The notes: generated from the letters alone by a model not told the origin. A stretch of 64,000 bases of DNA from Trypanosoma brucei (GCA_000002445.1 CP000071.1:2208001-2272000); one strand, 5' to 3'. Positions 2,296 through 53,586 are shown, counted from the first letter of the stretch. Translations and numbers: made by a program.

Positions 2296-2360
2296 AAGCC
2301 GTTTTGTTCCCCTTAACATTATTACTTTCCCCTTACCTCATATTTTCTATATCCATCAAG
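2296..2360 (+). promoter_or_regulatory. Polypyrimidine tract plus AG dinucleotide, candidate trans-splice acceptor for paralog A
   Basis: A CT-rich run (ttttgttccccttaacattattactttccccttacctcatattttctatatccatcaag) ends in AG about 38 nt upstream of the ATG at 2397. This is the typical kinetoplastid arrangement. Confidence 0.45.
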
Positions 2361-2396
2361 TGTATAACCACAAAGACACTTAACCACCAAAAGAAA

Positions 2397-23906: not shown

Positions 23907-24956
23907 GAAAGGCAAGGGAAGGAGTGCAAACGGTCCGTGAGGGGAACGGCAACTCGGTAGGCTTTGGGATGCACTTTACTGAGCAAATAAACAGCTAAAG
24001 AGTGATTTTTACTTCTTAACTTTTTATATGGGCCTTTATCCTTTATTATTTTACCCATACGGTTCTATTGTTGTACGCATCCCATACTCGAACCACTTGG
24101 CTGCGGTTTTCGCCCACAAGAACAGTTCAACCTTAGCTGCAGAAGCGTGAGACCGTTGCGGCGGAGTGGGATCCATTTTTCCATCATTTCTTTCCGTTGT
24201 TTGGTATACTTTTTTCTGTTGTTGTTATTTCTTTCCTCACTTTTTTTTCGTTGACCTTGGCAAGTTGCGGGGGGCTAGTCCTTTACACGTGTGTGAAAAG
24301 AATGACGGTCACTTGTGCGGCCTAACTAACCCAATGGGTAAACTGAACTAGCGAAACAGCTAAATGTTTTAACACCTTCCACTACAATTATTCTTTTTTC
24401 TACCAATCCTTAAAGCTACAGCCCTTCCCTCAAGTGTTTTACCTGTTTATTTTTATTTTAACTGACAAACTCTCAGCGTTGTTCTCCACCTTGGCGGTAT
24501 CGCCAAATCTCGGTTTTTACAATCTCCATCTAAAATACTGAGTTATAATTGCACACTTACAACCTCCAGCAGTCCATGTGAATACTGAATCCAGTGCCAA
24601 AAACTATTCCCTCTTTTTTCTTTTTTTATTTTTCAACCCCCAACACCTAGTGTACTACATACAGATAGAAGGGCAGCGTTAATAATTAAAAAAACACACG
24701 AACCACAGCAACACCCACCGACAATACATAGTCACCATTTCTTAACCAGTTGCGACTCATTTTATACATCAAACAAGCAGCAAAATCAACAACGAACTAA
24801 TAAAAAACTACATACCACCACAAAAAAACACAAACAAAAAGTTAAGGAAAGAACCTTCTAAAGGCAACATCACTTTTCCAGCCAACAAACATCTATATTT
24901 CACGCAAAATTCACCAAAAAAAATTTTTTAACAACGAAATATGAAGTTTTGCACAA

Positions 24957-25396
24957 AAACACGCATTCTTGCACAACCTGCACAACGTTGCATGTTTGTG
25001 CACAAAATGCGCACTATTGCGTATTTTCACGTAAAACACGCGTTCATACGTGTGTTTGTGCAAAAACAGTGTTGCAATGCAACATGTAACGTGTTTTGGC
25101 GTANNNNNNNNNNNNNNNNNNNNNNNNNNNNNNNNNNNNNNNNNNNNNNNNNNNNNNNNNNNNAAACACGCATTCTTGCACAACCTGCACAACGTTGCAT
25201 GTTTGTGCACAAAATGTGCACTATTGCGTATTTTCACGTAAAATACGCGTTCATACGTGTGTTTGTGCAAAAACAGTGTTGCAATGCAACATGTAACGTG
25301 TTTTGGCGTAAAACACGCATTCTTGCACAACCTGCACAACGTTGCATGTTTGTGCACAAAATGTGCACTATTGCGTATTTTCACGTAAAATACGCA
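24957..25396. repeat. Tandem satellite, 147-bp unit, at least 2.6 copies visible, interrupted by an assembly gap
   Basis: Units begin at 24957, 25164 and 25311 (aaacacgcattcttgcacaacctgcacaacgttgcatg...) and are ~98% identical. Each unit holds two related hairpins, cgt[ag]tttt-N5-aaaa[tc]acg, and the palindrome gttgca-a-tgcaac. Confidence 0.9.
25103..25163. other. Assembly gap (61 N) inside the satellite array
   Basis: A run of N placed exactly at a repeat-unit boundary, so the true copy number is unknown. Confidence 0.99.
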
Positions 25397-25875
25397 ATAA
25401 TTTGTAAAACTGGTAAATTCTTATGAAGGAGGTGAATATACATAAAAATTGTAATGATGTAGTTTATTCTGTTTGGAATTCTGTATTCGCTATAATTTTA
25501 TTACGCTTTTTATAGCATTCGTATTGGAGGTATTGTCTTCTAATAAATATGTCGTTGTTATTTCCAGGTGGTAATGTGGTATGTCGCTATTCTGCCTTTT
25601 ACGTTTTTTTGAAATGTTTTTTCGTGCCTTCGTGGGAGTTTCCCCCCACTGGCGCGGCAATCAGCCACCACCGTAGAGCCCTGAGATGCTATCGGTCTGG
25701 CGACTGTGGCAGAGTCTCCCTTTTTTCTTCATCCTAACACACCCTCTATAATTTTTGTTGTAGCTCCGCAGTTGAACGGAATACAGCAGATGGGGCGAGA
25801 AGCCCCCCTCCACCCCGGACTCTCCAAAAGATGTCAATTAGCAATCCTTTTGTTTTGATTTTTGTTATTCGTTTA

Positions 25876-26984
25876 TTATTCTCTCCCCCTCTTTCTGTTT
25901 CTGGTGCTTGTTGACAGCATACCCCCTCTGTCTCTGAGGGTGTCTGGACTATTCCTGCGTCCGGTGCTTTCCCTGCTAGCTCCACTCTCGGCAATAAGGG
26001 GGGAAGTTGCAGAAGGGAGAGTGGGTTGTATGACTGTTACATTAGGTGAGGACTTCACCCGCGGCCGGCTCCGTTCAACCGCAATGAGGAACTGCGCCAG
26101 CCTTTTAGAGAAGCATATATCCTGCACACACACCCCTTCTACCACAAACCTGACACGTAATTCCTTCAAACAGGGACAGTTCATCAGGTGCAGCGACGTT
26201 TCTTCGCAGTCGCCGCGTTGGCTGGTAACAGCGCGCTCTACCTTCATACCGTGGATCTTCTTTTGATGTAGGGTGAGGCCAGTTTTGTTAGTACACTGCC
26301 TTCCGCATGTCGGGCACACCAACATGGATGTGTTTGTATGTGGGGAATCAGTGGCACACAATTTTGTGCTTTTGCTGCATTTAAGCTCGACTTCTTCACC
26401 TTGTGGAAAGCCTTACAGTGTCGGATGAGGGAGTCCCTGCAACTGAGCACTTTTTGGCACACACCACACTGCACCTCGCCCTTCCCCGGGACGTCAACGT
26501 TTCCCTCACGGGCACGCTTACGAGGGAATTGCACCACCACCACGGTACCGTCCTCCGTCACTATGCTCTTATGTTTGAATTTCTTGTGTAGTGACAGGGA
26601 AGAGCGTGTACCGAAGCTCGCCTCGCACAGGTCACATTGAAACGGCAGCTTCCGTGTATCCTGAGAGGCTGGCGCTGCTGGGGCTCTACCATCTCCTTGC
26701 AATGAGTCTTCGTTCTCTCGCCCCCTTTTCACGCGACAACTACCGCTGCCTATGCCATGTATTGTTCTAAGGTGGTGTAATAGTCGGCCTGGCACTGCGA
26801 ATTTGGAGGCACAGAGGGTACAATGAAGCACCTGCGGTCTCATCGTGACTCGTGTGCTCGATGGTAGAGGAACGATCGCCACCACTGGACAGGGCTCCGG
26901 GGGGATGTCCACTGCAGGTGTTGCATCGCCGTATTTGATCCTCCGGGGGGCATCAGCTCGCACAAAGCCATGCTTGTTTACCAT
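25876..26984 (-). CDS. C2H2 zinc-finger protein (at least 4 fingers), minus strand; apparent frameshift between ORFs 26984-26244 and 26361-25876
   Basis: Classical C-x2-C-x12-H-x4-H fingers: HCTLCASKFAVPGRLLHHLRTIHG, FQCDLCEASFGTRSSLSLHKKFKH, VQCGVCQKVLSCRDSLIRHCKAFH in the first ORF, and VCPTCGRQCTNKTGLTLHQKKIHG in the second. The two ORFs overlap by 118 nt in different frames. This is the only convincing minus-strand gene in the window. Confidence 0.6.
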
Positions 26985-29900
26985 GTGCGTTACAGCACTC
27001 GACCGGCGCTAGCCATGGGCTTTGTGCTTACGCCGTCTCATTTCATCACCAGTGCGTGTCATATTGTTTTTCGCCGTCGCAGTGGTCGCACGGGTTGTTG
27101 GAGTTCGACGCTTTGTAAGCCGAGCTTTGTACTTTTCATTTCAGGCACTGCAGTGGTGTTCGCGTGTCGATATTTCGCAGCATCCATTTTCAATACCAAG
27201 AGGCAACGGGGCGGGAACGAGCCACTGCCACCTCTTCTTCGCTCGCTTTTCCCCTGACAGCAATATCGGTCCCATGTAGGTTACAATATCCTGGAGCTTC
27301 GCGTCAGGCAACTGCGGCATGTCAGTCACCCTTTCCACCATACCATCAATCATCCCATTCCATTCCACATCAGTAACTAAATACAAACTTCAATGTGGTA
27401 TACGCTTTCCCTCCCGTATTTGTAGGAGAAGCACCCGTAGCTTATTTGGGTGTTGGTCTGCCACGGTGGGATGGGTCTACTTCCAATACCATGAGCGGCA
27501 ACAGCGAGTTTGTGATTGTCAAGAGTCTGCTCAGGGGCGACGCCGGCCACCTCAACGTGGTGCCAAGTTCCAGCGCCCCGTATTTTCAGAGGAGGCCAAT
27601 AGTCAGCAGCGTTTCTCTAGTGGGGAACTCTGCTTTGCTCCAGCTCCGGCTTCTCATAGCGTCGGGGCCGGTCGCGTTTTTCTGGGGCACCGTTTTTCAC
27701 TTCTCGGTCCCGGACACGTGCCAGCACATCATAAGCAGCGTCCGGAGTTTTCTCTATGACGTTGTATACGTTTGGAAAACATCCAGTGACATTCCCGCAC
27801 CCTTTTCTATTGCTAGGGATTCTGTTGGGTTACTGCGGGCCGATGGGGCTGCATTTGCCCGCTTCACGAATATCAGTTTGTTTCCCCCACATGTTGTCGT
27901 AGCTGTCCCATTCTTTTCCCCCCCAATAATGCAGATCCCTCAGTCCACGGCCCGTGGCATCTACCAGCCGGTGATTGTAGACTGTTTCCACTGAAGTGCC
28001 GCGGAATCTGCTTCTTCCATGCTTTTATTTTCATATCTTTGTGATCTTCCGCGCGTATGAGCCTTATTTAATTGCGAAAGAGAACCCTGTTGCTGTATCG
28101 AAGTTTGAGGAAAGTAACTGGGGGCTTACACCACTTGACACAAGGGGATTGGTGATCTCGTGTGATGTATCTCCTCGTGATATTGGTCATGAAAATTCGG
28201 AAGCACTCTTCCTCTGCATTGCGCTACACCGCAGCTTTTCCATTTCACTTCTCAGACCAACATGGGCTTGGCACTACGTATGGAACGCTCTTGAGCTGTA
28301 GGCCCTTGCCGTCAGGGAGGGCGTTCTCCCAGTGTATTCTCTATGATACACCTAAAAATGATATAGCTTAATCTTCGCTATTCAACAGCAAACGCCTTGC
28401 GAGCACTCACCCACACGTCGCAGAAAACACACTTCGATTATCGACATGGCATAGGCTCGTGCTAGCGTGCTGTAAAACACTTTTGCGTTGCCGAGGCTTG
28501 GGAACCATATCAGCGGGGGCACTGCCACTATTCGAAGCATCCTGAAGTTGGTTTTTATTTCCTTTCCAGACAGTGTGTCTGTGTAGGGATTCCGCGCATA
28601 CATTGAGTCCTCAATCTAAGTACCTTCGGTATTCTCTTTGTCCCCGTAAGCGCCACATCGAGGTATAGGTGAAGCGGTGCTCATGCCGTCCGACCGAGGA
28701 GTCAATTTCCTTTTCGTCACATTGGCTTCCATCACGTATTTTATAGATCACCGTAGCACAATATGTGGAGACCCCTCTGATGTACGTGGTTGATGGTTTC
28801 CCTCGCCTTATCCCGAGCAATCAGTATTAATTTCATTCAAAGAAAAGCCATGTTATATTGGGCGTACTTCTGCTAGCCATCAGACCATCGAGTTTCCCTC
28901 CAACATGATACTTGAGATACGACTGAGCGTGGTTAGTCGCGTTACACTCTTCCCAAAACAACATTATGTTCCAAACCATTTATCTAGTCCTTACTATTTC
29001 CATCTTTTCATTGTGAAGAAAGCTAAAACATTTGATGATGCACCACCGTGCATTTAACATTTTCCGCTACCGCACCGAGCTTGTCATGCTCAACTTTCCC
29101 CCAAAAGGGCCCTCCCATACTCAAAGAATATACCATACCTATACGTGACGTTAGTGATGGACGGCTAAAAGCTGCTGAAGGGTTCAGAAGAGGATCTTCC
29201 AATGTGTGGTGGTACACTTTTCCTTCCTTATACGAAACCTCAATTTTTTCACAGTCTAAGTCGAGTATGGTTCATTCGTTTAGTAACTTTCCGTGTGCAC
29301 CTCGTGAGCGTCACCAGTTCGTATGAGTTTTCATATTTCATTTTCTTAAAAGCTGCTAGGGCATGGATGTTCAGACGACACATGATTCTGTTTTGATGTT
29401 TCGATTCTCTTCTACGGACTCATATCAAACAGTTAAAGCAAGAGCGTAAATTATTTGTTTCTGGGATGTTACTGTGTTTCGCTGCCCAGATAAAGGGAGG
29501 CAGCCGCTGAGACACGTGGTAGCTGATGCGGTGATATTATGGGTTGAAAAAGTGTTATCGTTCGGAGCTATATCATTTTTGTGTTTATAAACACTAACTA
29601 TTGTGAGTAGCTATGCCCTTTGAGAGACGAAGGGCATAGGTCAGGGAAGTGCCTCACCCGTTACCGGCCACTGGCAGAAGCTTCGTGCGCCATAGCCAGC
29701 GGAGTGCTGTGAAACATTGGAGTATATATATACATATGCTGGTGATGCATCACCCATATGGGTCTTAAACCTTTAGTCGTCACAAAAATGCACACCACCT
29801 CTTCAATGCCACACGATCCAGCGGTTGCTTCCGCATAGCACTCAGCCCTTCCTCAATTTAGTGAGATCAAGCTCTTAGTAGCGTTTATCTACAGGGTTAA

Positions 29901-32900
29901 GAAAGTTCGTGTGCCCAGTGTTGTATTGTACTGTGGTGTTCCCCTACTCACTCGTGGGGCAGCTCCAGCAGGTTGAAATAAGATCGTGGGGTAGAAGTCA
30001 ATCGTTTGCCCAAACCACATAAACTCCGCCATTTCTGCCCTTTTTGTCCTTGTACGGTCCCGTGGTCGTCCTTCCGAATTCACCCCACTTAAGTTTGGTT
30101 CATACATGAAAAAGAGGTTTCCGACACTGGCGGTTCAGGTTATCCATTGTGTTTTTCCACTAAATTACACAGGATAAGATAGGGTGATGGTACATATTTG
30201 CTGAAGTGTAGTGATATCCATGCGTACGCCCCGCGCTATCTTTACAGGGGATGCATCATGTTCGGGCTTCGCCGCTCAGTGCGGGCACTTAGTGCCATGG
30301 CCAGTTTTTGGTTGACTCGAAAATGGTTGTTGATACAGCGCCGCATTAAAGTTTTTCCTTTGGTATGTGGTTGGATGGTGCGGCATCAGGAAGGCGCGTT
30401 GGCAAGAGCACCGGCACCAATGAGTTACGCAAGTCACGTTACGCGCACTGGCTTATTTACCCCTAGCATAAAAGTGTGGTGTGACAGAGTTACTAGTGAA
30501 AGCGACGATTTGCATCCTCTCTTGTAGATAGGCGATGGCCTGCGTATCTTAGACGTGTGAAATGACTTCTGTTCATAGCTCTGCTAGAAGGTCTTCCATA
30601 ATGAGCATACGAGCATGCCGCTACCTTCTTACAGATGTAGGTTGTCTTGTGATATGTTGGTAAAAGGTAGCGCTTATGGACCTTGATTCTGTAGTTGTTA
30701 TCCTAGTTCCAGTCACGACACAGAAGGTTGAAAACGCATCAACAAGCGTTTTATAAAATATACTGGGATTACTTTCCTCTGGAACGTGGTGCAACTCTAT
30801 TGATGTTCCAATGCCAGAACTTTTATAGACCTCCCTTTGCGTGAGTGGACGGAGGTGTCCTTTGGCATGGGCAATCATCGGATAATGCGTTCCCAGGGAT
30901 CGAAGAGTGCATAGTTGTATTCCACACCGACGCCAGTTGCTACGTTGGTGCGCGGTGCTGTAGCGGGGGCACATAAATCAATGTCTTGTTGCAGTGGAAC
31001 ACCGCCGTCTTGTTATCTTCCCCTAAACGTACGACGCACCAAGCCTTGCTCCTATGTTATGGTGGCCGTCACAGCCAAATTGCCAAAGATAACCATTCCC
31101 GCACATGGGGAGGTGCCTAACCTTCCTAGCCCATCTTTTCAAACACGCCAGTCTGTCTTAATACATTTAATCTCTGCAACATATGAACCCTCTTTCATTC
31201 ATCTTATGCATTCGCTTTCAGGTTTCCTGGGGGGAAGAATTTATGTGCACTCTGATTTTTGATTTCGTAATTCAATCTTACCACTGAATTAAGCCATCCA
31301 GATGTTAGATGTTTCCGATAATATGGTCGGCCTTTTAGCCCGAAAAGTGTCCTTTCTCAGCGTTTCGCGTCACGTAATATTACACTTTCCTTTCGTGTGC
31401 CACCCGCACAACGGATATCCGTTGCAGTTCTGAATGTGTCTTGCTTGTTTGCGTCCGATGAAACCCCCAAAATTGTGTACACTGACTGAGTTTGCATCCT
31501 TTCTGTTTCTCCCATGTTTAAAGTAGAGGGTGAAAACAAGCAGTCAGAGACCCTGTAGAACATATCTACTCGTACAAATCCTGGGCAAAAGCCTTTCAGC
31601 GCTTCCCTTTAGGGAGCCCATTCAGACGATGTCACTGCCTTTAGCTTCGGCAATCTTGCCCTTGCTAACCTCACTTTTCGTTGAGCACGCTTCGACAGTA
31701 CCTCCGGTAACTGTAATGAAAAGTTTCAAAAGCCTTCTAATTGTCGCATTATCAATCCTTTTTCTACGTGCCGTGATGTACGTGAGAGATTGTGATTGCT
31801 CCATCCAAACAATGTGTGTTCTCTTTTCCCCCTTCCATGTTGTAATCCCCCATAAAGTGTCTCTTAGACCACTAGGTTACACAACTCCCTCCGTCTATAG
31901 GCGTACATTTCATGTCCTCCTTGTCAGATACCGCTACCTTCAGTGTCAGCTCGACAGCGAATAGGCTGTACATGAGTCCAGGCGCCTTATTTGATTTTAC
32001 AGTCATACAATCCATCGTTGCAATGAAGGGGTAGCGGCTTCATACCGGTCACTGTGGAATGGAATGCATCAATATTACATTCCCATATAAAGTGTTGTGT
32101 AGTTGGAACATCGCAGTTCTGTCCACCATTAAGTAGTTTACTCACCATATCGCTCGTGGATCTACTTTAAATCGATCTGGCGCTCAGATGGTAGAGATAT
32201 GTCCCACCGAGACAAATAGATTTACATAGTCCAGAACTGTCTCTACGACTCAGGAATGGTTATCCTGCTGCATGATTGCATTTACCGCTTCCACAATGAA
32301 GTTGGTGGTGCCCTCAATGGTCAGTAACCCGACTGTCATCGCTGCTGCTGCTCTCCCACGCAGTTTTTAAGTTTCCTGACCGTCACTATCTCGATGAGTT
32401 CGTACACGGTACCGATTACCATCTGCAGCCCGGGTGATCCAACTTTTTAGTTGATTCATTCAGCTCAAAGAACAGTGATGTGGTGACCTCCTTTCTCCAC
32501 CGTTCAGTAGTTTCGCCGAGTCTTGGCGGCGGTATTTTCTTTTGTTTTTTTTTAAGTGCCGAAGTAAACATGACCTTTAGTTTCCCGCATTTAACTCTTT
32601 CCCCTGCTGCCATTTGTTAGACCGATAGTTCTTTTGTTTCTTTTTCGGTTCGACACACGCAAGCAGTTCAGACAATTCTAGGTATAGGGAAAATTCATCC
32701 TTGGGGTCACCGAATTTCCTACGGAACACTTCACATACATATCCTCAAATCGCTGAGCCTCCATTTTTTCCTTTTTCCCAAGTGTGTGACACATCCTCCA
32801 TTATTAGGACAGGGTCGATGTCGGTCGCAGTGCCAATACCGATTTCGGCGAGACTCAAGCTTTTCGTCTATCAGCAGCTTGGAAGTGCTTCTTCCCCCAT

Positions 32901-34593
32901 TACCTTGCGGCCGTTTCGCTTAGTACACACTTTCTTGGGTGAATGAATACTGACCTTCCCCTATGGTTCCACGCTAAGTCATTTTACCCCCAAGTACCAC
33001 CAATACCATGACCCAATGTGGCGGCACCGAACCTCGTCTATTAGTGATTGCTGTTTCTGGCAGGCGCACCGCAGATGCAGTAGATCCACTGGGCTCGTTA
33101 TCTCCCCTTTACATTCCATTCAGCCGGCTTACAGGGCTTATCAGCACACTGTTTTCGGAAATGTGGCCAGTTCGTTCTCCCCACACGGAAACAAAGTACT
33201 ACGGCACTTGAAGTGCTCGATCCTTCCTATGTTGCTTCCCACTGCTCCACAGAAGGTAACCTCAGCCACGCCTCCTGTTAAAGCCTTTAATCGCATTCTA
33301 AGATGTCGCCCCGTGGTTTACAGAGCAGACGACACTGGGGGACGGCATTTCTATCTTAATCGCCCCGCCAAGCACGCCTCCTTTCCGGTCCTGGTGTTGT
33401 CGCACGCGGTTACCCCTCGCCGCTACATACCAAACAGTCTTGTTGTTTCGATGCTACGGAGGAACTGTCGCTTAATTTACTGCTGGTCGGAACGCCGGAC
33501 CCCTGCGCGACGGAGAAACGGCGGACGCAGCTGGGGTCGGCAATGATAGCAGCACGTTTGCGTGGCATACCTGGCGGGTGCTCCTGGTAGCCGAGGTAGC
33601 AGTTTTCTCTTACCGGAGGCTTGCTGTAAGCAACTGGCCGTTGCGTGTGTTCCTGTGTGTGGAGCGACCTCGTGTTGACGTATAACGAAGCTTCGGGTGG
33701 GGGAGTACGGCAGCCGGGGTTCGCTGGCTCCACGCATCCGAGGGAGTGTGTACGAACACCGCCATTTGGACATCACCAGATGCGCCAGCCTGTAGCCGGT
33801 ACCGGCCGGGTGGGGATGCGCCTGCCCTGCGTGCACTCGCTCGGGTACCGTATCTGTACGTATGTAAGCCGCGTGGGCGCCTTTGATCACCGGGTGGTTT
33901 CCAGCCGGCCGTCGGACTCCGTTGCTGCCTGCGTGCGAGCCGCTCGGTGAGGGTGATATAGCCACCGAGGACGGGAGCTGTCGTCTTTGTTTTTTTCTGC
34001 AGGTCTGGCTTGTTTGATTCGATAATCATGCAGATCAGGTGGTTGGTTACTCGGTCACGTTCTCTCCGCTCCTTTTGGTGATGTAACAGGAGAAGCGGTT
34101 TGTAGCACCCACTGAGGGGGTGCGTCCGCTTGGCCGATCTACGGGCGGGTCGCATCTCCCATGTTTTAAAAGCGGGGCTGCAACCAGTGTTGATTGTTTG
34201 AGGCGTCGCAGAAGCATACGGAACACGCAAGCCAGCGTTTCAACTGATTTGCTCTGTTTGAACGCGTAGTAAAGCAAAGTTCATTTGTTAGGTAACAACA
34301 AAAGCTCACCAGTGCTGTGGTGCTACTGCAGACTGCGCAGAAGACACCACACCAAAATAACATCAGTTTAGATACAGTATCTCTCGAGTGTATGAACTAC
34401 CGTAGCAACGGTGCTGACTGCGTTTTAGTGGACGGGGTTGGGGTTGTGCACGTCTTAGTGAGGCTTAGTGTGTGTGTGTGTGTGTGTAGGGGGGGGGGAA
34501 GGGGGACGTCTGCCAGGTACGGATTTTATTTGTTGCCACAGTTATGATTTTTTTTGTTTTTTGGCGTGACACGCTAGTGCACTGTATCGCAAA

Positions 34594-34595
<2 letters not shown>

Positions 34596-34624
<29 letters not shown>
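34596..34624 (+). repeat. (CAA)n microsatellite
   Basis: caacaacaacaacaacaacaacaacaa, read directly. Confidence 0.95.
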
Positions 34625-37169
34625 GTTTATTAGTGCCCTACAAGCCCTCTGAGGATCTTGCTTACTCTACTATGAAGTGCTTAATTGCTTCACGCTACTA
34701 GCGACAGTTGATAGAATGACTGGTCGCAAAAACCGTGATATTACAAGGGAGGATGAATCACTTCCGGAGTATTGGTGTCTTGTTCTCAGTAAATGCACAA
34801 GTTTCTATTTCTTTTACCGAGCAAACGCATTTAAAAATCAAATATATACCCAGACACAAGCAGCCAGGGAGAATTGGGTTTACCACTGGCTATACGACTT
34901 TTATCGTTTTCTTCGAGAGGTTTTAACGGAAAATCCCCATTTGCTGAACTTAGGTCAGTGTCACAACAAATTCTGAGGTTTTTGTGGGGCGTCTTTGTTT
35001 TTTCTTTTATCTTAGAGCCTTGGGGTCCCAAGCGTTTGTTCTGTATAATTTCATTAGTGTCGTAGAAAACTTAACGCTTCCGTGCCGATGTTCTCTTTTG
35101 AAGGAATCATTCACGCTACAGACCCCTCTAAAGACTGGTTTCACCAGCGTGGGGGAGGGACTAAACCGCAAAAAAAAAAAAAGAGTGACCGGACCCCTGC
35201 ACCTTGTCAAAGGACTAGTGTCCTGGCTTTGTAGCCAATAATATTCACCACCTTTGAGCGCTGATGCTTCTGTTTTCTTTTTTTTTTTTTTGGCTCTGAC
35301 TTAGGTGGTCCCAAGAAGGTATGGTTTAGAGAAGTATATCATTAGACTGTGCCGAGTATTGAGAAATGGATGCTCTTGAAAGTGCAACTATACCATAATC
35401 GATTGTGATTACTGCTTTTTTTTTTTTTAAAATGTCATGTTAGCACACATTTCGGCTGCTTAATTACCGACTATCAAATGACTGCTTTGTGTAACCCGTT
35501 CCAACTAAGAGGGACTTCACTGGGAACGGTTGTGGGCTTCAGTAAAATGTACGGGCTGCTTACCACTGAAGGCTGTCTCGGACGGGCAGCCCTTCTAAAC
35601 ATTTGGTCCCCATAAACTCCATATCGAATAATGATTACATTATTAAATCATCACGCTGGCGTCAAACTCCTTCGAACGTGAACACGAGAAGCTGGGGGAT
35701 ATAGTCACATTTGGAGCGGTTGTCCATGAGCAGGGTTCTTAGGCATATATGCTTTGAAGCATTTGTTCTTGTTGTTGTTTGCATCCGAGGAATTCTTGCT
35801 AACTGACAGTTTTCTGCAGGTAAAACAAAAATACGATGTTGATGGTCAACGATTCCGCCATAGTTAGTCATCACTGACTCCATATATTACGTTCACGTAA
35901 GGCAACCGGTCCTGTTTTTTCCTAGAAATTGTGTGGTAACTGGGCCCTATATTTGCCAATCATCCATACCACTGTGGGATTTACTGCGACATAGTTGGGG
36001 TAGGGGAAGGGTGTTAACGACAGACCATGTGAGTGCCTGCAAGTTTTTAGTCGATTCGCCATGGTGACGATTTCCATTGATGATCAGATGTTATTTGGGG
36101 TGTCGCCGTAAAATTTTGTATCAATCCATTAAAGTTTTTCGCCACAGTATTTTTTTCGGCAATAAGGCGAAATGTTGTGGTGCTGCTGCGACATCACAGG
36201 CGGGAAGGGAAAAATAAAAATCATTATGTACGGTTCAGTGGTCTACGATAGAGGTTTCGACTACAGATTGGCCGCTTTTTTTTTTCTAGTTTCTATTACC
36301 TCTTGCGTTTTTACGTTCAGCCAGTGGAGGTGGTTAGGCTCGTCCTTTAGATGCCTCGGGTTACAGCGGCCGTGATTCAAGCATCTACGTGAGCACTGAT
36401 AGTGCTGCGTACTGATGTCACCGTGCGTGAAATATTAGTTTCATTTATATTAACATCAGTGCATTGTGTATGATGAACTTTTGTTGTAACTGGCCCTCTA
36501 AGTTTACCCTCACTTTAATCCCACAACTCCTCATATATGTGCTTGTGCCTCTGATTCCCTTTTTTCTTTCTTTATGTGAATAGAACACGAAGGCAAAAAG
36601 GGAAGGTTCTGAGCACCTACACGCACATAGAAAACCGTGAGGGTGGAAACTTGAAACTTCCGGGGAAACGAATCTTCCTTCTCTGTTTCACCTTCCATTT
36701 GCCCCGTCTCGCTTTTCCTTCGTGTTTTACTGTTTTTAGGATCCCCTGGAATCCGTGTTTCATAGTTCCAGTTATTTAACTGACTTGCGTCACCTGGGAG
36801 GCGGAGCGAGGAAAAAAAAAAGTTAAAAATACGGACAAAAAAGTGAGTAAAAGAGATAAAAAGCGAAAAAGACTCACGCTGCCACTATTTTTGGGTGAAA
36901 GTCTGGTACGTGTGCTGACAGGTGAATTGCTGCCATAATCATTCAAAGTATTGTATATTTGCGTTTGGTTTGAACGCTCATTAACTGGCGAGGCGAAGGT
37001 GGAGAGTGGCGACAGTCGAACCAACAACATCGCTACATACTTGACTTGCCAAGTTCCTCCCTCCCTTATTCGGGTGTATCACTTCTTTTGCTTTTTCTTT
37101 TGGCTCATTTCTGGACGTCGGTAGAGGGAGGACCACATTCACGTGTTGGCTGCTCCGCTGATTATCATT

Positions 37170-37500
37170 AAAGTGGAGGCAGTGTGAGAAGAGAAGAAGG
37201 GGAAGGAGGAGCCCATTAGAAAGCAAATCGAGGGAAAGACGTGTAGAGATAGGAAGGGACAAGGGGGAAAAAAAACAACAACTAAAACGGCGGAAAAAAA
37301 GGAAGGGAAGTAGAAAATAAATAAATCGTTAAAAGTAGATATATTACACATAACAGGTTAGGGGTGGACGGAAGGCGGCAAAAGGAGTGACGAAGGGATA
37401 ATCACAACCAGACGGAAGTAGCAAGGAAAGAAGGAATCAAAGGAAGGGGACAAAAAATCGAGGTGGATTGTCTGAGGGAGAACAGAGGGGGTGCGTGGAT
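37170..37500 (+). repeat. Polypurine (GA-rich) tract of ~330 nt on the plus strand
   Basis: aaagtggaggcagtgtgagaagagaagaaggggaaggagga...ggaaggggacaaaaaatcgaggtgg, with very few pyrimidines. Confidence 0.85.
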
Positions 37501-38544
37501 TTAGCACCATTATAACATTATATCTTATAGGAGTTCACCATTTCTTTTTTAAAACAACAGCAGTACAAATTAGTGTCGAGAAGAGAAAAAGCCAAAAGGG
37601 GAGCCTTTTGTTCCGGATTACATAAGTTGTTTTTGAAAATAACTGATCAGTAAAGCAACCAAAACAGGAGGCAACTGAACATTAAAAAAAAAGAATAGTG
37701 GCGTGTTTTATATATTGTTTGTGTATTTGTTGTGTTCAAGTTCCCTATTGTATATCTAGTTACTCATTTCCGTGCTCCTTAGCGTTAGCCCTCCATTTTT
37801 TTTACTCCCTTAAGTCTCGAGCACAAGGAGAGAAGGAGAGAAGGAGGGAAGGAGAGGAAAAATTGCGGAGAGGAGCGTGGGGTGGGGACAATTAAACGGA
37901 GAGGAAAGATTTGCTTTTTTAAATTTCATTTATATTTATACATATTTTGACGTCATTTTGTTGGGAAGCGAGTAGTAAATTCTTTCCACCAGTGAGAAAG
38001 CAAAAGAAGTTGCAAGGGGGTTGACTCGTCCGTTTGTTTTGCCTTACTGTTTTGCTGGTTGAGTTGATTCGGCTCGACTTGAAGTGTGGGGCTCCTGAAC
38101 CAACCAAAAGATTAACCGAAGGTTCTGAGTGTAGGAGGTGCAGTGAAAAAGTAGCGGTAACTTCAAAAACAAAGGCATATAAGGGGGAAGGGAATCACCG
38201 TGACATTTATACTAAATCTTGCATATACCAATTTACAAATATATAGCGTTGTGAAGCAACTGGGGCATTGCCAAAAGGGTGTGAAATAGCCAGGGATACA
38301 GCAGGGAGAAAGACGCGGTGCACGCACGGTGCGAAGGAGGGAAGTAAGAGGGAGGAGGAGATTCTACTTCCCTTTTTGGTTTTGCTTTATTCTTATTATC
38401 ATTATTATTGGAACACAACTTGCATTAAATTTTTGTTATTGAGGTCTTCATCGTTTGAATTGCTTCGTTAAACACACACACACACCCACACACACAACGC
38501 CCTCAACAACGACACCGACTTAAACACGCTCACAAAATACGCAG

Positions 38545-41500
38545 ATGGGGGCTGTGCCCAGCCGTGAGTCCTTGGGGCGCGGACTGTGCCAAATACCAGA
38601 TTATGGGCAGAAGCACAAAATGGTGCTCATTCCCTTAACGAGAGAGTTCTTCCCGTCACCCGACTGTTTGCTCTTACGGCAGCTCTTTGAGGCGCGGAGG
38701 GATCCGTTTGTCCATTACTATCACACATTCGATGAGGGGTTTGCTAAGGCGCAAGCGCCAGATCCTGCTGTGGACGCTGACGCCGCAAAACTTTATGATC
38801 TCCAGGGTCTTGTTGCTCCATCAACCAGCGCCTCCGCTACCGCCCATCTCGTTGAGGGCAAGGCATGGCGTGCTGATGACTTTGTGCCTTTTAGCTGTAC
38901 ACTGGAAGAGTTCTACGACTCGTATGTGTGCCGTATGGGCGAGCGCCGCATATACGATACAGATGAACAGATGCTCAGGTTGTGCACGCGGGACCCGAAC
39001 GCGATCCGCCCTGTGCCGTGCGCGGTAGCGTTTGCTTATAACTCTGCCCCCACGCCCTCCGTACTCGGTAATAAAGAGGCGCTTGGTGGGGAGGTCATGT
39101 TGCGTGAGGATGGTAGTAATAGTGAACTGGGTAACAGCGGTGGGGAAAGTAGAGCTGAGGTAGGGGATGCAAAGGGCAGTACGCTAGAGGAAAGCAGCAT
39201 GCTTTTTGGATTGTACGTGCGTATCGTTGGTTTCGTTGGTGGTGTGAGTGACATCTGCCCGCATGGTTGTAACGATGTGTTGCTGGAGGATACGTTTCAA
39301 CTACAAGTGTTTCTTAACAAGTCGGTTGGAGACCACAACTTTGTACACGCCTTCATAACGGCCGTTTATACCTATGTAAGGCAATGGCGTGAGGCAGCGG
39401 TGATGCACATAGGGAGTATTGAGGACCAAAGGCAACCGACGGGACGTGGCTCGGTTGAGGTAGGGGAAGGGGGACATTCTAAGGTTTCCTCCACTATGAG
39501 TGGCGAGAAGCCGTTGATGACACCTCCTGCTGCGTCTGTTGTTATTGCATGCAAGCGGACCAACGTTCCAATGCTATGTTTCCAGCGGGGGTTGCGAGCG
39601 ATGCTATCACGACTCCTAGGCATTGTGGAGTCCGAGGGGATAAGTAACCCCGGAGGGCCGTGTTGTTGTCGGTGCCGCAGAAAAAATGATTGTATTCTTC
39701 AGACGCATAAATTAGCAGCTGGGGTTCCGTTGGGTACGCCACAAGACGGCGATACCAAAGTTGTCAGCGAATGTTCTTCTGCTCCTTCTTTGGAAAAAAC
39801 TACCATGTTGGAGAATGTCTTTGACATGTGGTTGAATGGCGACGTAGTGTTTGCATGTATTCCAAAGCAAATTGTAGCACGTGCTTTGGAATGTGTTGGG
39901 ATGCGCATGGGTTGCCCAGAGTGCATAATGGACATTGTGCGACCAAAACGTACTGAAACGCGGGCGGGCTGTAACACGGAAGTGAGGACGGCGCAGTCTA
40001 ATCCCCATGTCGGAGTGGCCCGGGATGTGTGCTCGCTGCACTCAACTGCCGATGCTTTTTGCCCACAAGATGCCGTTAACGCATTGGCTACCACTGCCGC
40101 TAAGGGTTCCTCCTCAAAAGGCTATGGGGGCGGTCTCAAAGTGTGCGACTCTGAGGCCGCTGCCACTGAACTACCTGCACATCAAAAGCTGCATGACGTA
40201 TTGGGCGAGACTGTGGTTGTGGAGGAATGGCCAGTGGATGGGATCGATCTGGTCAGCTTTACGAACGCCAAGGGGGATACCATCGACCGCCCGGCGCACT
40301 TGTATTGGGTAGTTGGGCGTTCAGTGACTGCCCAAGAAACCGCAGCCTCTGCCTTTTTCTCATGGTGGGCTGGTGGGAGGCTAACGGTTATGGGAGGAGG
40401 ATGTGACGTGTCGAACGAAAGTGAGCACGAAAGAAGCAACAGTGGGAAGGGGAAAGTGGATGAACGCTTGTCGGTCGGAGAGTTGCTTTACCTCAATATG
40501 AACCCATGCCAGTCAAATGCGATGCGTCAGTGGGTTCTTCAGCGTACCACGCTCCCACTGGAGGAGCTTTTGCTATCTGAACTACATGACAGCTGCAAGC
40601 TGGCACGACAGGCGCCGGTTGATGCAGAGAACTGGCTGCGCCATACTGACATCAGCGGCCCACGAGAGCGTGACAGGTCTCTACTGCTACCGCTAGGTGC
40701 TGAGGATACCAATGGGGAAGACTTGTCAGAGTTTGCTGTTGGTGTAAGACAACTTGTTGGCGAAGGTTCGCTTTGTTTGTGGCGGGTGACACTCGTGACA
40801 GGTGCAGTGCGCGCTATAGCGGTCACACCGCACTTTCTTCGCCCGCCACGGAAAAAGCGGGCGCGCAGAAAGCCAACCCGGCGCCCGTATGCTCCGGAGC
40901 AGGCTAATGCAACATCGACGGCGGTGGATGGGGCTGCACCGGTCAACAGCTTTGGGCCCTCAGCGGAGACGCAGGCATCCAAGGGCAGAAGAGCAACGAG
41001 GTCAAAGATGGTAACAAGACGGTCGGTACCATTACCAACAGCTGTCGTATCGGAAGGTGTGCTAAGGAGCGACGAACGGTCCGCCATGTCGCCATCGTTG
41101 AGCCAAGGGCTCTGCAGGGAGGGCGGAGTCCCTCCGATGGCTCCTCCTAACACCACGCCTTCTGTGGGTTTTGGTCGTGTGCGGACTCGGCAGCAGCCTT
41201 GCTGCTACGGAAACCCTGCGCTGGCTTCCCATATGGAGGTGCCTGCATTTCCCCAAGGTCAACAATCCGGTTTTGTTGCTTTCAACCAGCCAGTTGTCGA
41301 TTCTAGTCATTCCCCCGTTTCTGATGCAAGCTATGCAAATAGGCGTACGTCGACTCCTTTTCTGAGCCGCCGAACTTCAAGGGAGGATCAACTTGGGTTT
41401 ATGCCTTACGACAGTTACAATGTTTCGCGCCGCATAAGCAGTGACGTAACAAGCCAACGCTTATCTACGGCTTCCTTCACCCATTTCCCTCGTTGGGACG

Positions 41501-41859
41501 GGTGTGGAACCATCTGGCCCTACACAGGTTCGGAGGAACGGCCGAGTGTTACACGGCATTCGTCAGCGGTGGGAGGTGGGTGCACTCCCTTTTTTCAGCC
41601 GGCAGATGGATGGTCAAATTCCATGCACTCACGTTCTGGCACCCGCGAGGACTTTCACCCTTCCTGTGCCCTCCACCGGACCGGCGGAGGTTTCAGCAGC
41701 AGCGGCGGCTGCAGCAGTGAAAGTGTTGCAGGTTGTGCCCGCACTCAATTCGACTTCATTTCTGCGTCTGGACTTGGAACTGATGAGGTGTACGCCGATG
41801 GGGCGGAGGTGAGAACCCCAACACTTAATGTAACGGTGCGGCGTGGCCTGCAACACTGA
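38545..41859 (+). CDS. Large hypothetical protein, member 1 of an unrecognised MGAxPSRE N-terminal-domain family (1104 aa)
   Basis: Long plus-strand ORF behind a CT-rich tract. The N-terminus MGAVPSRE fits the N-myristoylation consensus (G2, S6, R7). It shares conserved blocks with the ORFs at 44048 and 53587 (VLIPLTREFFPSPDC, YDTDEQM, PVPCAVAFAY, VRIVGFVGG, NVPMLCFQRGLRAMLSRLLG). The C-terminal half is Ser/Pro/Arg-rich and low in complexity. Confidence 0.8.
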   Translation: MGAVPSRESLGRGLCQIPDYGQKHKMVLIPLTREFFPSPDCLLLRQLFEARRDPFVHYYHTFDEGFAKAQAPDPAVDADAAKLYDLQGLVAPSTSASATAHLVEGKAWRADDFVPFSCTLEEFYDSYVCRMGERRIYDTDEQMLRLCTRDPNAIRPVPCAVAFAYNSAPTPSVLGNKEALGGEVMLREDGSNSELGNSGGESRAEVGDAKGSTLEESSMLFGLYVRIVGFVGGVSDICPHGCNDVLLEDTFQLQVFLNKSVGDHNFVHAFITAVYTYVRQWREAAVMHIGSIEDQRQPTGRGSVEVGEGGHSKVSSTMSGEKPLMTPPAASVVIACKRTNVPMLCFQRGLRAMLSRLLGIVESEGISNPGGPCCCRCRRKNDCILQTHKLAAGVPLGTPQDGDTKVVSECSSAPSLEKTTMLENVFDMWLNGDVVFACIPKQIVARALECVGMRMGCPECIMDIVRPKRTETRAGCNTEVRTAQSNPHVGVARDVCSLHSTADAFCPQDAVNALATTAAKGSSSKGYGGGLKVCDSEAAATELPAHQKLHDVLGETVVVEEWPVDGIDLVSFTNAKGDTIDRPAHLYWVVGRSVTAQETAASAFFSWWAGGRLTVMGGGCDVSNESEHERSNSGKGKVDERLSVGELLYLNMNPCQSNAMRQWVLQRTTLPLEELLLSELHDSCKLARQAPVDAENWLRHTDISGPRERDRSLLLPLGAEDTNGEDLSEFAVGVRQLVGEGSLCLWRVTLVTGAVRAIAVTPHFLRPPRKKRARRKPTRRPYAPEQANATSTAVDGAAPVNSFGPSAETQASKGRRATRSKMVTRRSVPLPTAVVSEGVLRSDERSAMSPSLSQGLCREGGVPPMAPPNTTPSVGFGRVRTRQQPCCYGNPALASHMEVPAFPQGQQSGFVAFNQPVVDSSHSPVSDASYANRRTSTPFLSRRTSREDQLGFMPYDSYNVSRRISSDVTSQRLSTASFTHFPRWDGCGTIWPYTGSEERPSVTRHSSAVGGGCTPFFQPADGWSNSMHSRSGTREDFHPSCALHRTGGGFSSSGGCSSESVAGCARTQFDFISASGLGTDEVYADGAEVRTPTLNVTVRRGLQH

Positions 41860-53557: not shown

Positions 53558-53580
53558 GTGTGTGTGTGTGTGTGTGTGTG
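53558..53580 (+). repeat. (TG)n microsatellite directly abutting a start codon
   Basis: gtgtgtgtgtgtgtgtgtgtg ends 6 nt before the MGALPSRE ATG at 53587. The repeat contains an in-frame upstream ATG at 53560. Confidence 0.95.
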
Positions 53581-53586
53581 ACGAAT

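What the first reader, a model, noticed from the sequence alone, without database searches (positions are those of the whole stretch)
27000..38544. An 11.5-kb stretch without a convincing ORF between a minus-strand gene start and a plus-strand gene start
Every ORF here is short and compositionally implausible (Arg/Pro/Cys-rich translations, several overlapping on both strands). By position this is a divergent strand-switch: the minus gene starts at 26984 and the plus gene starts at 38545. That makes it a candidate RNAPII initiation zone. It is far longer than a typical one, however, so it may also hold degenerate pseudogenes or mobile-element remnants, or unannotated non-coding RNAs. Features inside it include a GC-rich block (33000-34500), a run of ten Gs after (GT)n at 34470-34500, a (CAA)9 run, T-rich homopolymer runs and a 330-nt polypurine tract (37170-37500).
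Basis: partly seen in the sequence, partly recalled or inferred. Interest (0 to 1): 0.55.

Follow-up and report, generated by a model that had tools for sequence, protein, structure and literature searches.

The report
Retroposon graveyard beside a trypanosome centromere
The 11.5-kb gene-free stretch is real, but it is not a divergent strand switch: it is decayed retroposon DNA plus a long upstream spacer lying next to a collapsed 147-bp centromere-type satellite, between two gene clusters that both read rightwards.

Summary
Observation confirmed. Window 27000-38544 has no ORF longer than chance allows, and no Pfam, Rfam or tRNA hit apart from C2H2 zinc fingers.

Interpretation mostly wrong. 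The "minus gene" at 26244-26984 is the zinc-finger tail of a 5.2-kb degenerate ingi/L1Tc-type retroposon (DIRE-A, about 25845-31078, minus strand). All real genes on both sides are on the + strand.

About 440 bp left of DIRE-A's tail lies a 147-bp tandem repeat (24933-25402) broken by a 60-N assembly gap. It is about 90% identical to published T. brucei CIR147 centromere oligos. It follows the same gene order that precedes the T. brucei chromosome 8 centromere (amino-acid-transporter array, ceramide synthase, single transporter).

The region also holds:
- a well-preserved Pr77 retroposon promoter hallmark (27532-27608, +);
- a decayed reverse-transcriptase fragment (31851-32234, -);
- an unexplained GC-rich block (33000-34500);
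- about 4 kb of simple-sequence spacer like the one upstream of the orthologous gene in T. equiperdum.

Best reading: the pericentromeric flank of a T. brucei-type centromere, within which the downstream + polycistron must restart. This is a new member of a known kind. The strong cross-species conservation of the satellite is the most interesting by-product.

The parts
24933..25402 (.). CIR147-like 147-bp tandem satellite. About 2.6 units are assembled and the unit is 59.2% AT. A 60-N assembly gap (25104-25163) falls exactly at a unit boundary.
   Evidence: Self-BLAST, sequence and nhmmer. Published T. brucei CIR147 oligos match only here: the 50-mer probe at 45/50, and two 15-mers at 14/15 and 13/15. 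The best match of the 50-mer elsewhere in the window is 27/50.
25845..31078 (-). DIRE-A: a full-length (5.2 kb) but degenerate ingi/L1Tc-type non-LTR retroposon. Its 5' hallmark is at 31078 and its A-rich tail at about 25845.
   Evidence: Eight collinear tblastn HSPs against the T. theileri ingi-like element in L007; the sum of coordinates stays between 37297 and 37445. The A-rich 3' terminus ATAACAAAAAT.A.AACAAAAGGA is conserved. Many stops and frameshifts.
25876..26984 (-).
   Evidence: Pfam zf-C2H2_4 and zf-C2H2. The only homologues are 'Tbingi protein' fragments of T. theileri. Homology crosses the stop upstream of the ATG at 26984: 27005-26886 is 62% identical over 40 aa. The codon score is non-coding, -0.01 and -0.06 bits/codon.
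30888..31078 (-). Degenerate Pr77-type 5' hallmark of DIRE-A.
   Evidence: nhmmer E 5.7e-7 with a profile of Pr77-bearing 5' ends. 47/77 identical to the T. cruzi L1Tc Pr77. It was found within about 10 bp of the position predicted from collinearity (about 31090).
27529..27719 (+). Nested, well-preserved retroposon 5' end in the opposite orientation. The Pr77 hallmark proper is 27532-27608, with the CCACC box and the CGTG downstream promoter element intact at +25 to +28 (27556-27559).
   Evidence: nhmmer E 1.8e-51 and alignment A2. 54/77 identical to L1Tc Pr77, with a 24-nt identical core GCCGGCCACCTCAACGTGGTGCCA. Exact match to the ingi 15-mer GCCGGCCACCTCAAC. It accounts for the roughly 155-190 extra bp in DIRE-A at this point.
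31851..32234 (-). Decayed reverse-transcriptase fragment of a second element (DIRE-B).
   Evidence: It aligns in frame with the T. theileri RVT_1 fragment L007 8123-8533 (Pfam E 1e-20). E is 4e-6 in a restricted tblastx search. Motif A VDYAKAYDTVDH aligns with LDYVNLFVSVGH and motif C FFADD with LFAVE, with several in-frame stops. Pfam does not detect it directly.
33000..34500 (.). GC-rich block (57.8% GC in 33001-34000) with overlapping chance ORFs on both strands. Origin unexplained.
   Evidence: Composition. ORFs have negative codon scores and 24-27% Arg+Pro+Cys. No Pfam, Rfam or tblastx hit.
34468..34498 (+). (GT)10-A-G10 inside a 100-bp stretch that is 77-80% G+T. Candidate RNAPII start-region element; weak evidence.
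   Evidence: G10 is the longest G run in the window (a C10 run at 21630 equals it). Equally GT-rich stretches occur in ordinary intergenic DNA at 16.8 kb and 53.3 kb. The T. equiperdum orthologous spacer also has a (GT)12 and G8 runs.
34595..34624 (+). (AAC)10 microsatellite.
   Evidence: TRF.
36673..36860 (+). The only block alignable to the spacer upstream of the orthologous gene in T. equiperdum. It marks the right-hand part of the region as ordinary orthologous intergenic DNA.
   Evidence: blastn: 62% over 197 nt, E 1.4e-5, against L001 8286-8476. It ends about 1.7 kb upstream of the gene start in the window and about 1.5 kb upstream in L001.
37170..37500 (+). Purine-rich tract (78% A+G).
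   Evidence: Similar tracts precede the gene at 53560 (52.5-53.5 kb), occur at 16-18 kb, and occur in the T. equiperdum and T. theileri spacers.
38365..38544 (+). Polypyrimidine tract with downstream AG, an (AC)12 run and the 5' UTR of the first + gene (ATG at 38545).
   Evidence: Sequence. The gene is orthologous to T. equiperdum TEOVI_000421100.

Best explanation
The region is the pericentromeric flank of a T. brucei-type regional centromere in a salivarian trypanosome.

Layout, left to right:
1. The upstream + gene cluster ends with an amino-acid transporter gene at 23906.
2. A CIR147-family 147-bp satellite begins at 24933. The assembler could not span it, hence the 60 N; the real array is probably tens of kb.
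3. To its right lies DNA under no coding constraint, where ingi/L1Tc-type retroposons have inserted and decayed. These are DIRE-A (5.2 kb, minus strand, tail towards the satellite), a younger Pr77-bearing 5' fragment nested inside it on the + strand, and a reverse-transcriptase remnant of a second element.
4. Then comes about 2 kb of GC-rich DNA of unknown origin.
5. The last roughly 4 kb is simple-sequence spacer. The orthologous gene also carries such a spacer upstream in T. equiperdum (and a long ORF-free gap in T. vivax and T. theileri).

Shown here: the satellite's homology and its syntenic position; the retroposon identity of the 'minus gene' and of 27000-31078; the absence of coding or known RNA genes; and the same-strand orientation of both flanks.

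Inferred:
(i) The satellite assembles the kinetochore.
(ii) RNAPII transcription of the left cluster stops at or before it.
(iii) The right cluster is re-initiated from a broad unidirectional start region somewhere between about 27.5 and 38.4 kb.
(iv) The retroposon remnants are tolerated passengers, possibly contributing promoter activity through Pr77, rather than genes.
For: Strand layout. All Pfam-supported genes on both sides are on the + strand.

Satellite.
- 147-bp unit, 59.2% AT, with the gap in register with the unit.
- 45/50, 14/15 and 13/15 matches to published T. brucei CIR147 oligos (PMC8178753 supplement; PMC12975129). They occur nowhere else in the window, and chance expectation is 0.17-0.22 matches per 64 kb for the 15-mers.

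Synteny. The window's order is AAT tandem array, two small ORFs, TLC gene, a distinct single AAT, then the satellite. In T. brucei the order is the Tb927.8.7600 AAT array (n=11), Tb927.8.7730 dihydroceramide synthase, Tb927.8.7740 single AAT, then the chromosome 8 147-bp array (PMC1810246, PMC5568443, PMC1868937 Table 1).

Precedent. [quoted passage not shown] DIRE-A..

Pr77..

Reverse-transcriptase remnant..

No genes or RNAs..

Right-hand spacer. It resembles the ORF-free 4.5-kb spacer upstream of the T. equiperdum orthologue (3.5-kb and 3.4-kb gaps in T. vivax and T. theileri), where the upstream neighbour is a same-strand gene (a kinase in T. equiperdum and T. vivax).
Against: - Only about 2.6 satellite units are assembled, so array size is unknown. 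The N gap means the left and right flanks could have been mis-joined through a repeat shared by several centromeres.
- The right flank is not syntenic with T. brucei chromosome 8. Its orthologues in T. equiperdum, T. vivax and T. theileri sit behind a same-strand gene (a kinase in the first two) with no satellite. Either a rearrangement has its breakpoint here or the scaffold is chimeric.
- T. brucei gene identities come from the literature, not from direct sequence comparison.
- No kinetochore, topoisomerase-II, RNA-seq or histone-variant data were available.
- About 4 kb (32300-36600) has no identified origin.
- Pfam does not itself detect a reverse-transcriptase or endonuclease domain in the window. 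The reverse-transcriptase call is transitive, through T. theileri.
Confidence: 0.72

Rival explanations
1. One reading: a divergent strand-switch region. RNAPII would start in both directions, leftwards into a minus-strand cluster headed by the gene at 26984 and rightwards into the cluster headed by 38545.
For: One ORF on each strand faces away from the region. A GT-rich/G10 element and a Pr77 promoter hallmark lie inside. T. brucei start regions are broad, 5-10 kb (PMC9566855). Retroposons accumulate at strand-switch regions (PMC4748587).
Against: - The minus ORF is a retroposon zinc-finger remnant with homology running across its upstream stop codon and a downstream frameshift.
- Nothing else to its left is on the minus strand. 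The next genes (22503-23906, 20058-21251 and the AAT array) are + strand with strong Pfam hits.
- AT skew stays negative on the + strand from 1 to 37000 apart from short local reversals at 13-14 kb, 15-16 kb and 19-20 kb, with no switch at the region.
Confidence: 0.07
2. Scaffolding artefact: two unrelated contigs, each ending in CIR147-type repeats from different centromeres, were joined across the 60-N gap. The apparent head-to-tail arrangement and the synteny break would then not be real. The 11.5-kb region would still be a pericentromeric flank, but of another chromosome.
For: The N gap sits inside the repeat. T. brucei CIR147 units on six chromosomes are more than 90% identical, so such joins are easy (PMC1868937). 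The left flank matches the T. brucei chromosome 8 order, but the right flank's orthologues lie in a different context.
Against: Both repeat-to-unique junctions (24933 and 25402) lie within contiguous sequence, so each flank truly abuts the satellite. T. congolense and T. brucei chromosomes are known mosaics of one another (PMC13547854), so a real breakpoint at a centromere is plausible. The interpretation of 27000-38544 itself is unaffected.
Confidence: 0.15
3. The region hides real but unrecognised functional genes: lineage-specific small proteins, a domesticated zinc-finger protein, or novel non-coding RNAs.
For: ORFs 27395-27994 and 27996-28301 (+) have gene-like codon scores of 0.13 and 0.15. 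The Pr77 copy at 27532 is far better preserved than its host element. The 36673-36860 block is conserved with T. equiperdum. Rfam holds only described families.
Against: - ORF lengths are within chance.
- The two 'good' ORFs overlap the nested retroposon 5' end, lie in different frames, and have no Pfam hit (for 27395-27994; the other plus frames of 25500-31000 were not scanned). Their scores probably reflect the T-over-A bias of the + strand.
- The zinc-finger ORF scores as non-coding and is truncated relative to its homologues.
- No Rfam hit at E<=1.
Confidence: 0.06

Closest known systems
T. brucei megabase-chromosome centromeric domains, especially chromosome 8 between Tb927.8.7740 and Tb927.8.7750 (Obado et al. 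2007, PMC1868937; Echeverry et al. 2012, PMC3292466)
   Same: - A 147-bp repeat unit of about 59% AT, roughly 90% identical to CIR147 over the 74 nt that could be compared.
[quoted passage not shown]
- At least one DIRE lies next to the array, in a gene-free zone separating gene clusters.
- The array is collapsed at an assembly gap, exactly as in the first T. brucei chromosome 8 assembly.
   Different: - A different species: 4-fold degenerate sites are only 38-46% identical to the T. brucei group.
- The right flank is not the T. brucei chromosome 8 flank.
- A DIRE lies on one side only, with its tail towards the array. T. brucei chromosome 4 has head-to-head DIREs on both sides.
- No rRNA genes.
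- Centromere activity is untested here.
DIRE: degenerate ingi/L1Tc-related elements (Bringaud et al.; described in PMC4748587 and PMC1874656)
   Same: About 5.2 kb long, with a Pr77/79-bp hallmark at the 5' end, a C-terminal C2H2 zinc-finger region, an A-rich 3' end, a coding frame riddled with stops and frameshifts, and a position at a gene-cluster boundary.
   Different: The closest recognisable relatives are T. theileri 'Tbingi' fragments (30% aa identity), not T. brucei ingi, which could not be fetched. The endonuclease and RNase H domains are not detectable. DIRE-A's own reverse-transcriptase region gives only weak collinear hits. No convincing target-site duplication was found; there is only a weak 8/9-nt candidate.
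T. cruzi centromeres: GC-rich strand-switch domains made of degenerate retroelements without satellite (PMC1868937)
   Same: An 11-16 kb gene-free domain built largely from decayed L1Tc-type retroelements, containing a GC-rich block.
   Different: A satellite array is present here. No VIPER/SIRE signal was found. The flanks read the same way rather than switching strand.
Unidirectional RNAPII transcription start regions (sTSR) of T. brucei (PMC9566855)
   Same: A broad multi-kb gene-free zone upstream of the first gene of a cluster, with the upstream cluster on the same strand. GT-rich and G-run sequence is present.
   Different: No chromatin or nascent-RNA data exist here, and no consensus promoter motif is available to test. 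The start site is inferred only from the need to restart after a presumed non-transcribed centromere.

Membership tests
T. brucei-type centromeric domain (CIR147 array + DIRE/ingi) | Tandem array of roughly 147-bp AT-rich repeats | tested here: met
   147-bp period, 59.2% AT, 98-100% identity between units. Only about 2.6 units are assembled, around a 60-N gap, so array length is unknown.
T. brucei-type centromeric domain (CIR147 array + DIRE/ingi) | Sequence homology of the unit to CIR147 | tested here: met
   45/50 to probe BA3296, and 14/15 and 13/15 to the two 147R-TALE target sequences. These matches occur only inside the array. Only about 74 of the 147 nt of the T. brucei unit were available for comparison.
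T. brucei-type centromeric domain (CIR147 array + DIRE/ingi) | [quoted passage not shown] | tested here: met
   DIRE-A's tail lies about 440 bp from the array's right edge.
T. brucei-type centromeric domain (CIR147 array + DIRE/ingi) | Lies between directional gene clusters | tested here: inconclusive
   A 14.6-kb gene-free zone separates two blocks of genes, but both read on the + strand. Whether they are separate transcription units needs RNA or chromatin data.
T. brucei-type centromeric domain (CIR147 array + DIRE/ingi) | Positional conservation with a mapped centromere | tested here: met
   The left-flank gene order equals Tb927.8.7600 array, 7730, 7740, then centromere. This rests on literature gene descriptions, not on alignment to T. 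brucei sequence. The right flank is not conserved.
T. brucei-type centromeric domain (CIR147 array + DIRE/ingi) | Single such array per chromosome; topoisomerase-II cleavage and KKT kinetochore protein binding | not testable with these tools
   Needs the whole chromosome plus ChIP or etoposide mapping.
[quoted passage not shown] | Pr77/79-bp hallmark at the 5' end | tested here: met
   31078-30888 (-), nhmmer E 5.7e-7, 47/77 to L1Tc Pr77, at the position predicted from collinearity.
[quoted passage not shown] | Collinear remnants of the ingi/L1Tc polyprotein (endonuclease, reverse transcriptase, RNase H, C2H2 zinc fingers) | tested here: inconclusive
   The zinc-finger part is clear. Eight collinear HSPs match a T. 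theileri element that itself carries RVT_1. Pfam finds no reverse-transcriptase, endonuclease or RNase H domain in the window itself.
[quoted passage not shown] | Loss of coding capacity through stops and frameshifts | tested here: met
   About 190 stops per frame over 13 kb. Homology crosses stops and frames.
[quoted passage not shown] | A-rich 3' tail and target-site duplication | tested here: inconclusive
   The A-rich terminus is conserved with T. theileri copies. The only duplication candidate is weak: ATCTTTGG at 31090-31083 and ATCTTTTGG at 25832-24, read by eye.
Pr77 promoter hallmark (copy at 27532-27608, +) | CCACC box at +16 to +20 and CGTG downstream promoter element at +25 to +28 | tested here: met
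   A 24-nt core identical to L1Tc Pr77, with CGTG at 27556-27559 = +25 to +28. Promoter activity was not tested.
Divergent strand-switch region / bidirectional start region | Protein-coding gene clusters diverging on opposite strands | tested here: not met
   The only minus ORF is a retroposon remnant, and all flanking genes are +.
Divergent strand-switch region / bidirectional start region | H2A.Z/H2B.V/H4K10ac enrichment and nascent RNA in both directions | not testable with these tools
   No chromatin or RNA data.

The most novel reading that the evidence does not exclude
The CIR147 centromeric satellite keeps its period and about 90% of its sequence, at a syntenic site, between T. brucei and a species whose synonymous sites are near saturation against it. 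That would make trypanosome centromere DNA sequence-constrained, for example by direct recognition through kinetoplastid kinetochore proteins. This is contrary to the usual rapid turnover of centromeric satellites.

Two further possibilities follow. The centromere may be the breakpoint of an inter-chromosomal rearrangement. And the well-preserved, rightward-pointing Pr77 nested in the dead retroposon may be the co-opted promoter that restarts the downstream polycistron.
Probability: 0.25. Interest if true: 0.75.

Novelty: new member of a known kind. Interest (0 to 1): 0.42.

Why it matters
For annotation:
- The locus should be labelled as a putative centromere flank with DIRE remnants.
- It should not be labelled as a strand-switch promoter.
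- The 246-aa zinc-finger ORF should not be called a gene.
- The 60-N gap flags a collapsed array that long reads should resolve.

For biology:
- The window gives a second species in which a CIR147-type array follows the same transporter gene as at the T. brucei chromosome 8 centromere. The far flank differs, so centromere position appears older than the chromosome arrangement around it.
- The satellite is much more conserved than neutral DNA: about 90% identity against 38-46% at 4-fold sites.
- If confirmed on full units, this bears on the open question of whether kinetoplastid kinetochores, which lack CENP-A, are specified by DNA sequence.

Tried and rejected
**Searches that found nothing**
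- Rfam at gathering threshold over the whole window and at E<=1 over 23900-38600, plus tRNA search: nothing.
- Pfam on stop-masked translations covering most frames: nothing beyond zinc fingers. The expected RVT_1 and endonuclease hits did not appear. The plus frames of 25500-31000 were not scanned apart from one ORF.
- Self-BLAST of the region against the window: no dispersed repeats except the satellite.
- The repeat finder: only low-complexity matches and a 24-nt partial resemblance to Pr77 at 37047-37070. I judged this not to be a real Pr77.
- tblastn of the neighbours of the orthologous gene in T. equiperdum, T. vivax and T. theileri (kinase, L51_S25, paralogues) against 31000-38544: no pseudogene remnants.
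- tblastx of DIRE-A against the right part: no second copy.

**Searches that were uninformative**
- The exhaustive representative search with the zinc-finger ORF was swamped by generic poly-zinc-finger proteins.
It is not T. congolense: the orthologue is 36.7% identical.
- Literature k-mer search for the window's satellite: no hit. Homology was shown instead through published T. brucei oligos.
- Siegel 2009, on G-runs at start sites, was not available. That point rests on memory only.
- No T. brucei promoter consensus exists to test (PMC9566855).

**Ideas rejected**
- T. cruzi-type VIPER, SIRE, DGF-1 or RHS content: the organism is the wrong clade and there were no hits.
- rRNA genes, as found at the T. 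brucei chromosome 1 centromere: none.


Full report
**1.

Within 27000-38544 the longest stop-to-stop frame on any strand is 209 codons. Block-shuffled versions of the region give 162 +/- 31 codons, and 7.7% of shuffles reach the observed value. Other 11.5-kb windows of the same sequence contain frames of 423-1111 codons where they do not overlap this region.

The ORFs of at least 90 aa score as non-coding on a codon model trained on the window's nine solid genes. They are enriched in Arg, Pro and Cys: 20.5% against 14%, rising to 24-27% in the GC-rich block.

Pfam scans of stop-masked translations found only C2H2 zinc fingers at 25876-26984. These covered the minus frames of 25500-35500, the plus frames of 31000-35500 and all six frames of 35400-38560. 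Rfam, at gathering threshold and again at E<=1, and ARAGORN found nothing.

- the GC-rich block;
- (GT)10 followed by G10;
- (AAC)10;
- T runs;
- a 78%-purine stretch at 37170-37500.

**2. The positional premise fails**

The organism is a salivarian trypanosome. The 1104-aa protein at 38545 is 45% identical to T. equiperdum TEOVI_000421100, 37% to its T. congolense orthologue, 34% to T. vivax and 31% to T. theileri.

To the right, genes at 38545, 44048, 48929 and 53560 are all on the + strand. The first three are syntenic with those species; 53560 is a further + strand paralogue. To the left, everything with Pfam support is also on the + strand:
- a tandem array of amino-acid transporters (2304-3797, 4289-5986, a fragment at 7280-7837, and 8376-10028; two copies are 98% identical);
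- a TLC/ceramide-synthase-type gene (20058-21251);
- a distinct single transporter (22503-23906, 39-40% identical to the array copies).

The only minus-strand "gene" is the 246-aa ORF at 26244-26984.

**3. That ORF is the tail of a dead retroposon**

Its only homologues among 5.8 billion proteins are "Tbingi protein" fragments of T. theileri. A profile search recovered 26 such fragments (144-316 aa, T. theileri plus one from T. melophagium) scattered over many contigs.

The alignment shows similarity well beyond the Cys and His residues. It also runs upstream of the ATG: the window's ...AVTHMVNKHGF matches ...AVLHMVNKHGF, the end of a further zinc finger. It therefore crosses the stop codon that creates the apparent start. 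Downstream it continues into ORF 25876-26361 in another frame.

In T. theileri the same zinc-finger module lies 1.5 kb downstream of an RVT_1 fragment (Pfam E 1e-20).

Eight tblastn HSPs between that element (L007 6693-11341) and the window's minus strand (30752-26047) are strictly collinear. The sum of coordinates stays between 37297 and 37445.

A profile of the elements' 5' ends finds a degenerate copy at 31078-30888 (-), with E 5.7e-7. It lies within about 10 bp of the position predicted from collinearity. The A-rich 3' terminus is conserved down to about 25845.

DIRE-A therefore spans about 25845-31078 on the minus strand. Its 5.2 kb matches the size of ingi. It has all the marks of a degenerate ingi/L1Tc-related element.

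**4. More retroposon debris**

At 27529-27719 on the + strand, nested in DIRE-A, is a far better preserved 5' end (nhmmer E 1.8e-51).
- Its first 77 nt are 54/77 identical to the T. cruzi L1Tc Pr77 promoter oligo published by Heras et al. (PMC1874656).
- A 24-nt core is identical.
- The CCACC box is intact.
- The CGTG downstream promoter element sits exactly at +25 to +28.
- It also contains the exact ingi 15-mer used as a TALE target in T. brucei.

The insertion accounts for the extra 155-190 bp in DIRE-A at that point.

At 31851-32234 (-) a second reverse-transcriptase remnant aligns in frame with the T. theileri RVT_1 fragment. Motifs A and C are recognisable but mutated (FFADD becomes LFAVE), and there are several in-frame stops.

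**5. The key to the region lies just outside it**

At 24933-25402 there is a 147-bp tandem repeat (59.2% AT). A 60-N assembly gap interrupts it exactly at a unit boundary.

Three published T. brucei CIR147 oligos match it:
- a 50-mer kinetochore-binding probe at 45/50 (PMC8178753 supplement);
- two 15-mers given as TALE targets, at 14/15 and 13/15 (PMC12975129).

Nowhere else in the window does the 50-mer exceed 27/50.

The genes preceding the array are in the same order the literature gives for T. brucei chromosome 8:
- the Tb927.8.7600 transporter array (n=11);
- Tb927.8.7730, dihydroceramide synthase;
- Tb927.8.7740, a single transporter;
- then the 147-bp centromeric array "between Tb927.8.7740 and Tb927.8.7750" (PMC1810246, PMC5568443, PMC1868937).

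[quoted passage not shown] They note that the first chromosome 8 assembly likewise showed 1.5 repeat copies next to a gap. In T. congolense each chromosome has one 25-128-kb AT-rich array that lacks RNA-seq signal (PMC13547854).

**6. The right-hand part**

From about 34 kb to 38.5 kb the sequence is simple-sequence-rich spacer. The orthologous gene is preceded by an ORF-free 4.5-kb spacer in T. equiperdum, and by long gaps in T. vivax (3.5 kb) and T. theileri (3.4 kb). The upstream neighbour in all three is on the same strand (a kinase in T. equiperdum and T. vivax).

The T. equiperdum spacer also has a (GT)12, G8 runs and purine tracts. One block (36673-36860) aligns with it at a collinear distance from the start codon. 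A polypyrimidine tract with AG precedes the ATG at 38545.

Purine-rich and GT-rich tracts of the same kind occur in ordinary intergenic DNA elsewhere in the window, so they are not special marks.

The GC-rich block at 33000-34500, and about 4 kb around it, remain unassigned.

**7. How it most likely works**

Shown:
- a CIR147-family satellite at a site syntenic with a mapped T. brucei centromere;
- a flank made of decayed retroposons and spacer;
- same-strand gene blocks on either side.

Inferred from established T. brucei biology:
- the array assembles the kinetochore and is not productively transcribed by RNAPII;
- the left cluster terminates before it;
- the right cluster restarts from a broad unidirectional start region inside 27.5-38.4 kb.

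Start regions are 5-10 kb wide and have no consensus motif (PMC9566855), so sequence alone cannot place this one. Two candidates exist. One is the rightward-pointing Pr77, an experimentally proven RNAPII promoter in T. cruzi. The other is the GT/G10 element; the link between G-runs and start sites is from my memory of Siegel 2009, which I could not retrieve.

**8. Caveats**

- The N gap allows a mis-join between two centromere flanks.
- The right flank's orthologues are not centromere-adjacent in three other species. Either a rearrangement breakpoint coincides with the centromere, which is plausible given the mosaic synteny between T. brucei and T. congolense, or the scaffold is chimeric.
- Neither possibility changes what 27000-38544 is.

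**9. By-product worth following**

Between the window and the T. brucei group, 4-fold degenerate sites in two orthologue pairs are only 38-46% identical. Intergenic DNA is barely alignable. Yet the satellite is about 90% identical over the 74 nt that could be compared. That is unusual for a centromeric satellite and deserves a full-length comparison.

**10. Verdict**

- A real feature, correctly noticed and mis-explained.
- It is a new instance of a known architecture: a T. brucei-type centromere flank with DIREs.
- Interest is moderate. It rises if the satellite's conservation or a Pr77-driven restart is confirmed.

Noticed in passing
window 24933-25402 (gap 25104-25163): The CIR147-type satellite is about 90% identical to T. 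brucei oligos (45/50, 14/15, 13/15). In contrast, 4-fold degenerate sites of orthologous genes are only 38-46% identical. The centromeric satellite is therefore far more conserved than neutral DNA between these species.
   Followed up: partly
window 23906-38545, compared with L001, L003 and L004: There is a synteny break exactly at the satellite/DIRE zone. The left flank follows the T. brucei chromosome 8 gene order. The right flank's orthologues in T. equiperdum, T. vivax and T. theileri follow a same-strand gene (a kinase in the first two), with no satellite. This is either a centromere-associated rearrangement or a scaffold mis-join.
   Followed up: partly
window 38545-41859, 44048-46747 and 53560-56055: Three tandem paralogues of a fast-evolving trypanosome-specific protein family with no Pfam domain share a conserved N-terminus of roughly 60-150 aa. 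A third family member found in T. equiperdum (1080 aa) and T. theileri (1141 aa) has no detectable counterpart in the window.
   Followed up: no
window 4289-5986 and 8376-10028: Two amino-acid transporter copies are 98% identical, with a truncated copy (7280-7837) between them. This looks like a recently homogenised tandem array.
   Followed up: no
window 33000-34500: A GC-rich block (about 58% GC) carries overlapping chance ORFs on both strands. It has no detectable homology to retroposon proteins, Pfam or Rfam. Origin unknown.
   Followed up: partly
window 37047-37070: A 24-nt stretch is 79% identical to part of the Pr77 copy (TGCCAAGTTCC...). No convincing hallmark surrounds it. It is probably chance or an extremely decayed SIDER.
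   Followed up: partly
window 31090-31083 and 25832-25824 (minus strand): ATCTTTGG lies just upstream of DIRE-A's 5' end and ATCTTTTGG lies 13 nt past its A-rich tail. This is a possible remnant of a target-site duplication. It is weak and was read by eye.
   Followed up: no
L007 (T. theileri NBCO01000006.1, 498965-519831): This one T. theileri contig (NBCO01000006.1) yielded seven of the ingi-type zinc-finger fragments. Locus L007 on it holds two Pr77 copies (6359-6551 and 20343-20542). It looks like a retroposon cluster that might mark a comparable boundary or centromere-like zone.
   Followed up: no
L004 6575-10000: The T. theileri spacer upstream of the orthologous gene contains 950 N, so its composition figures are unreliable.
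   Followed up: yes
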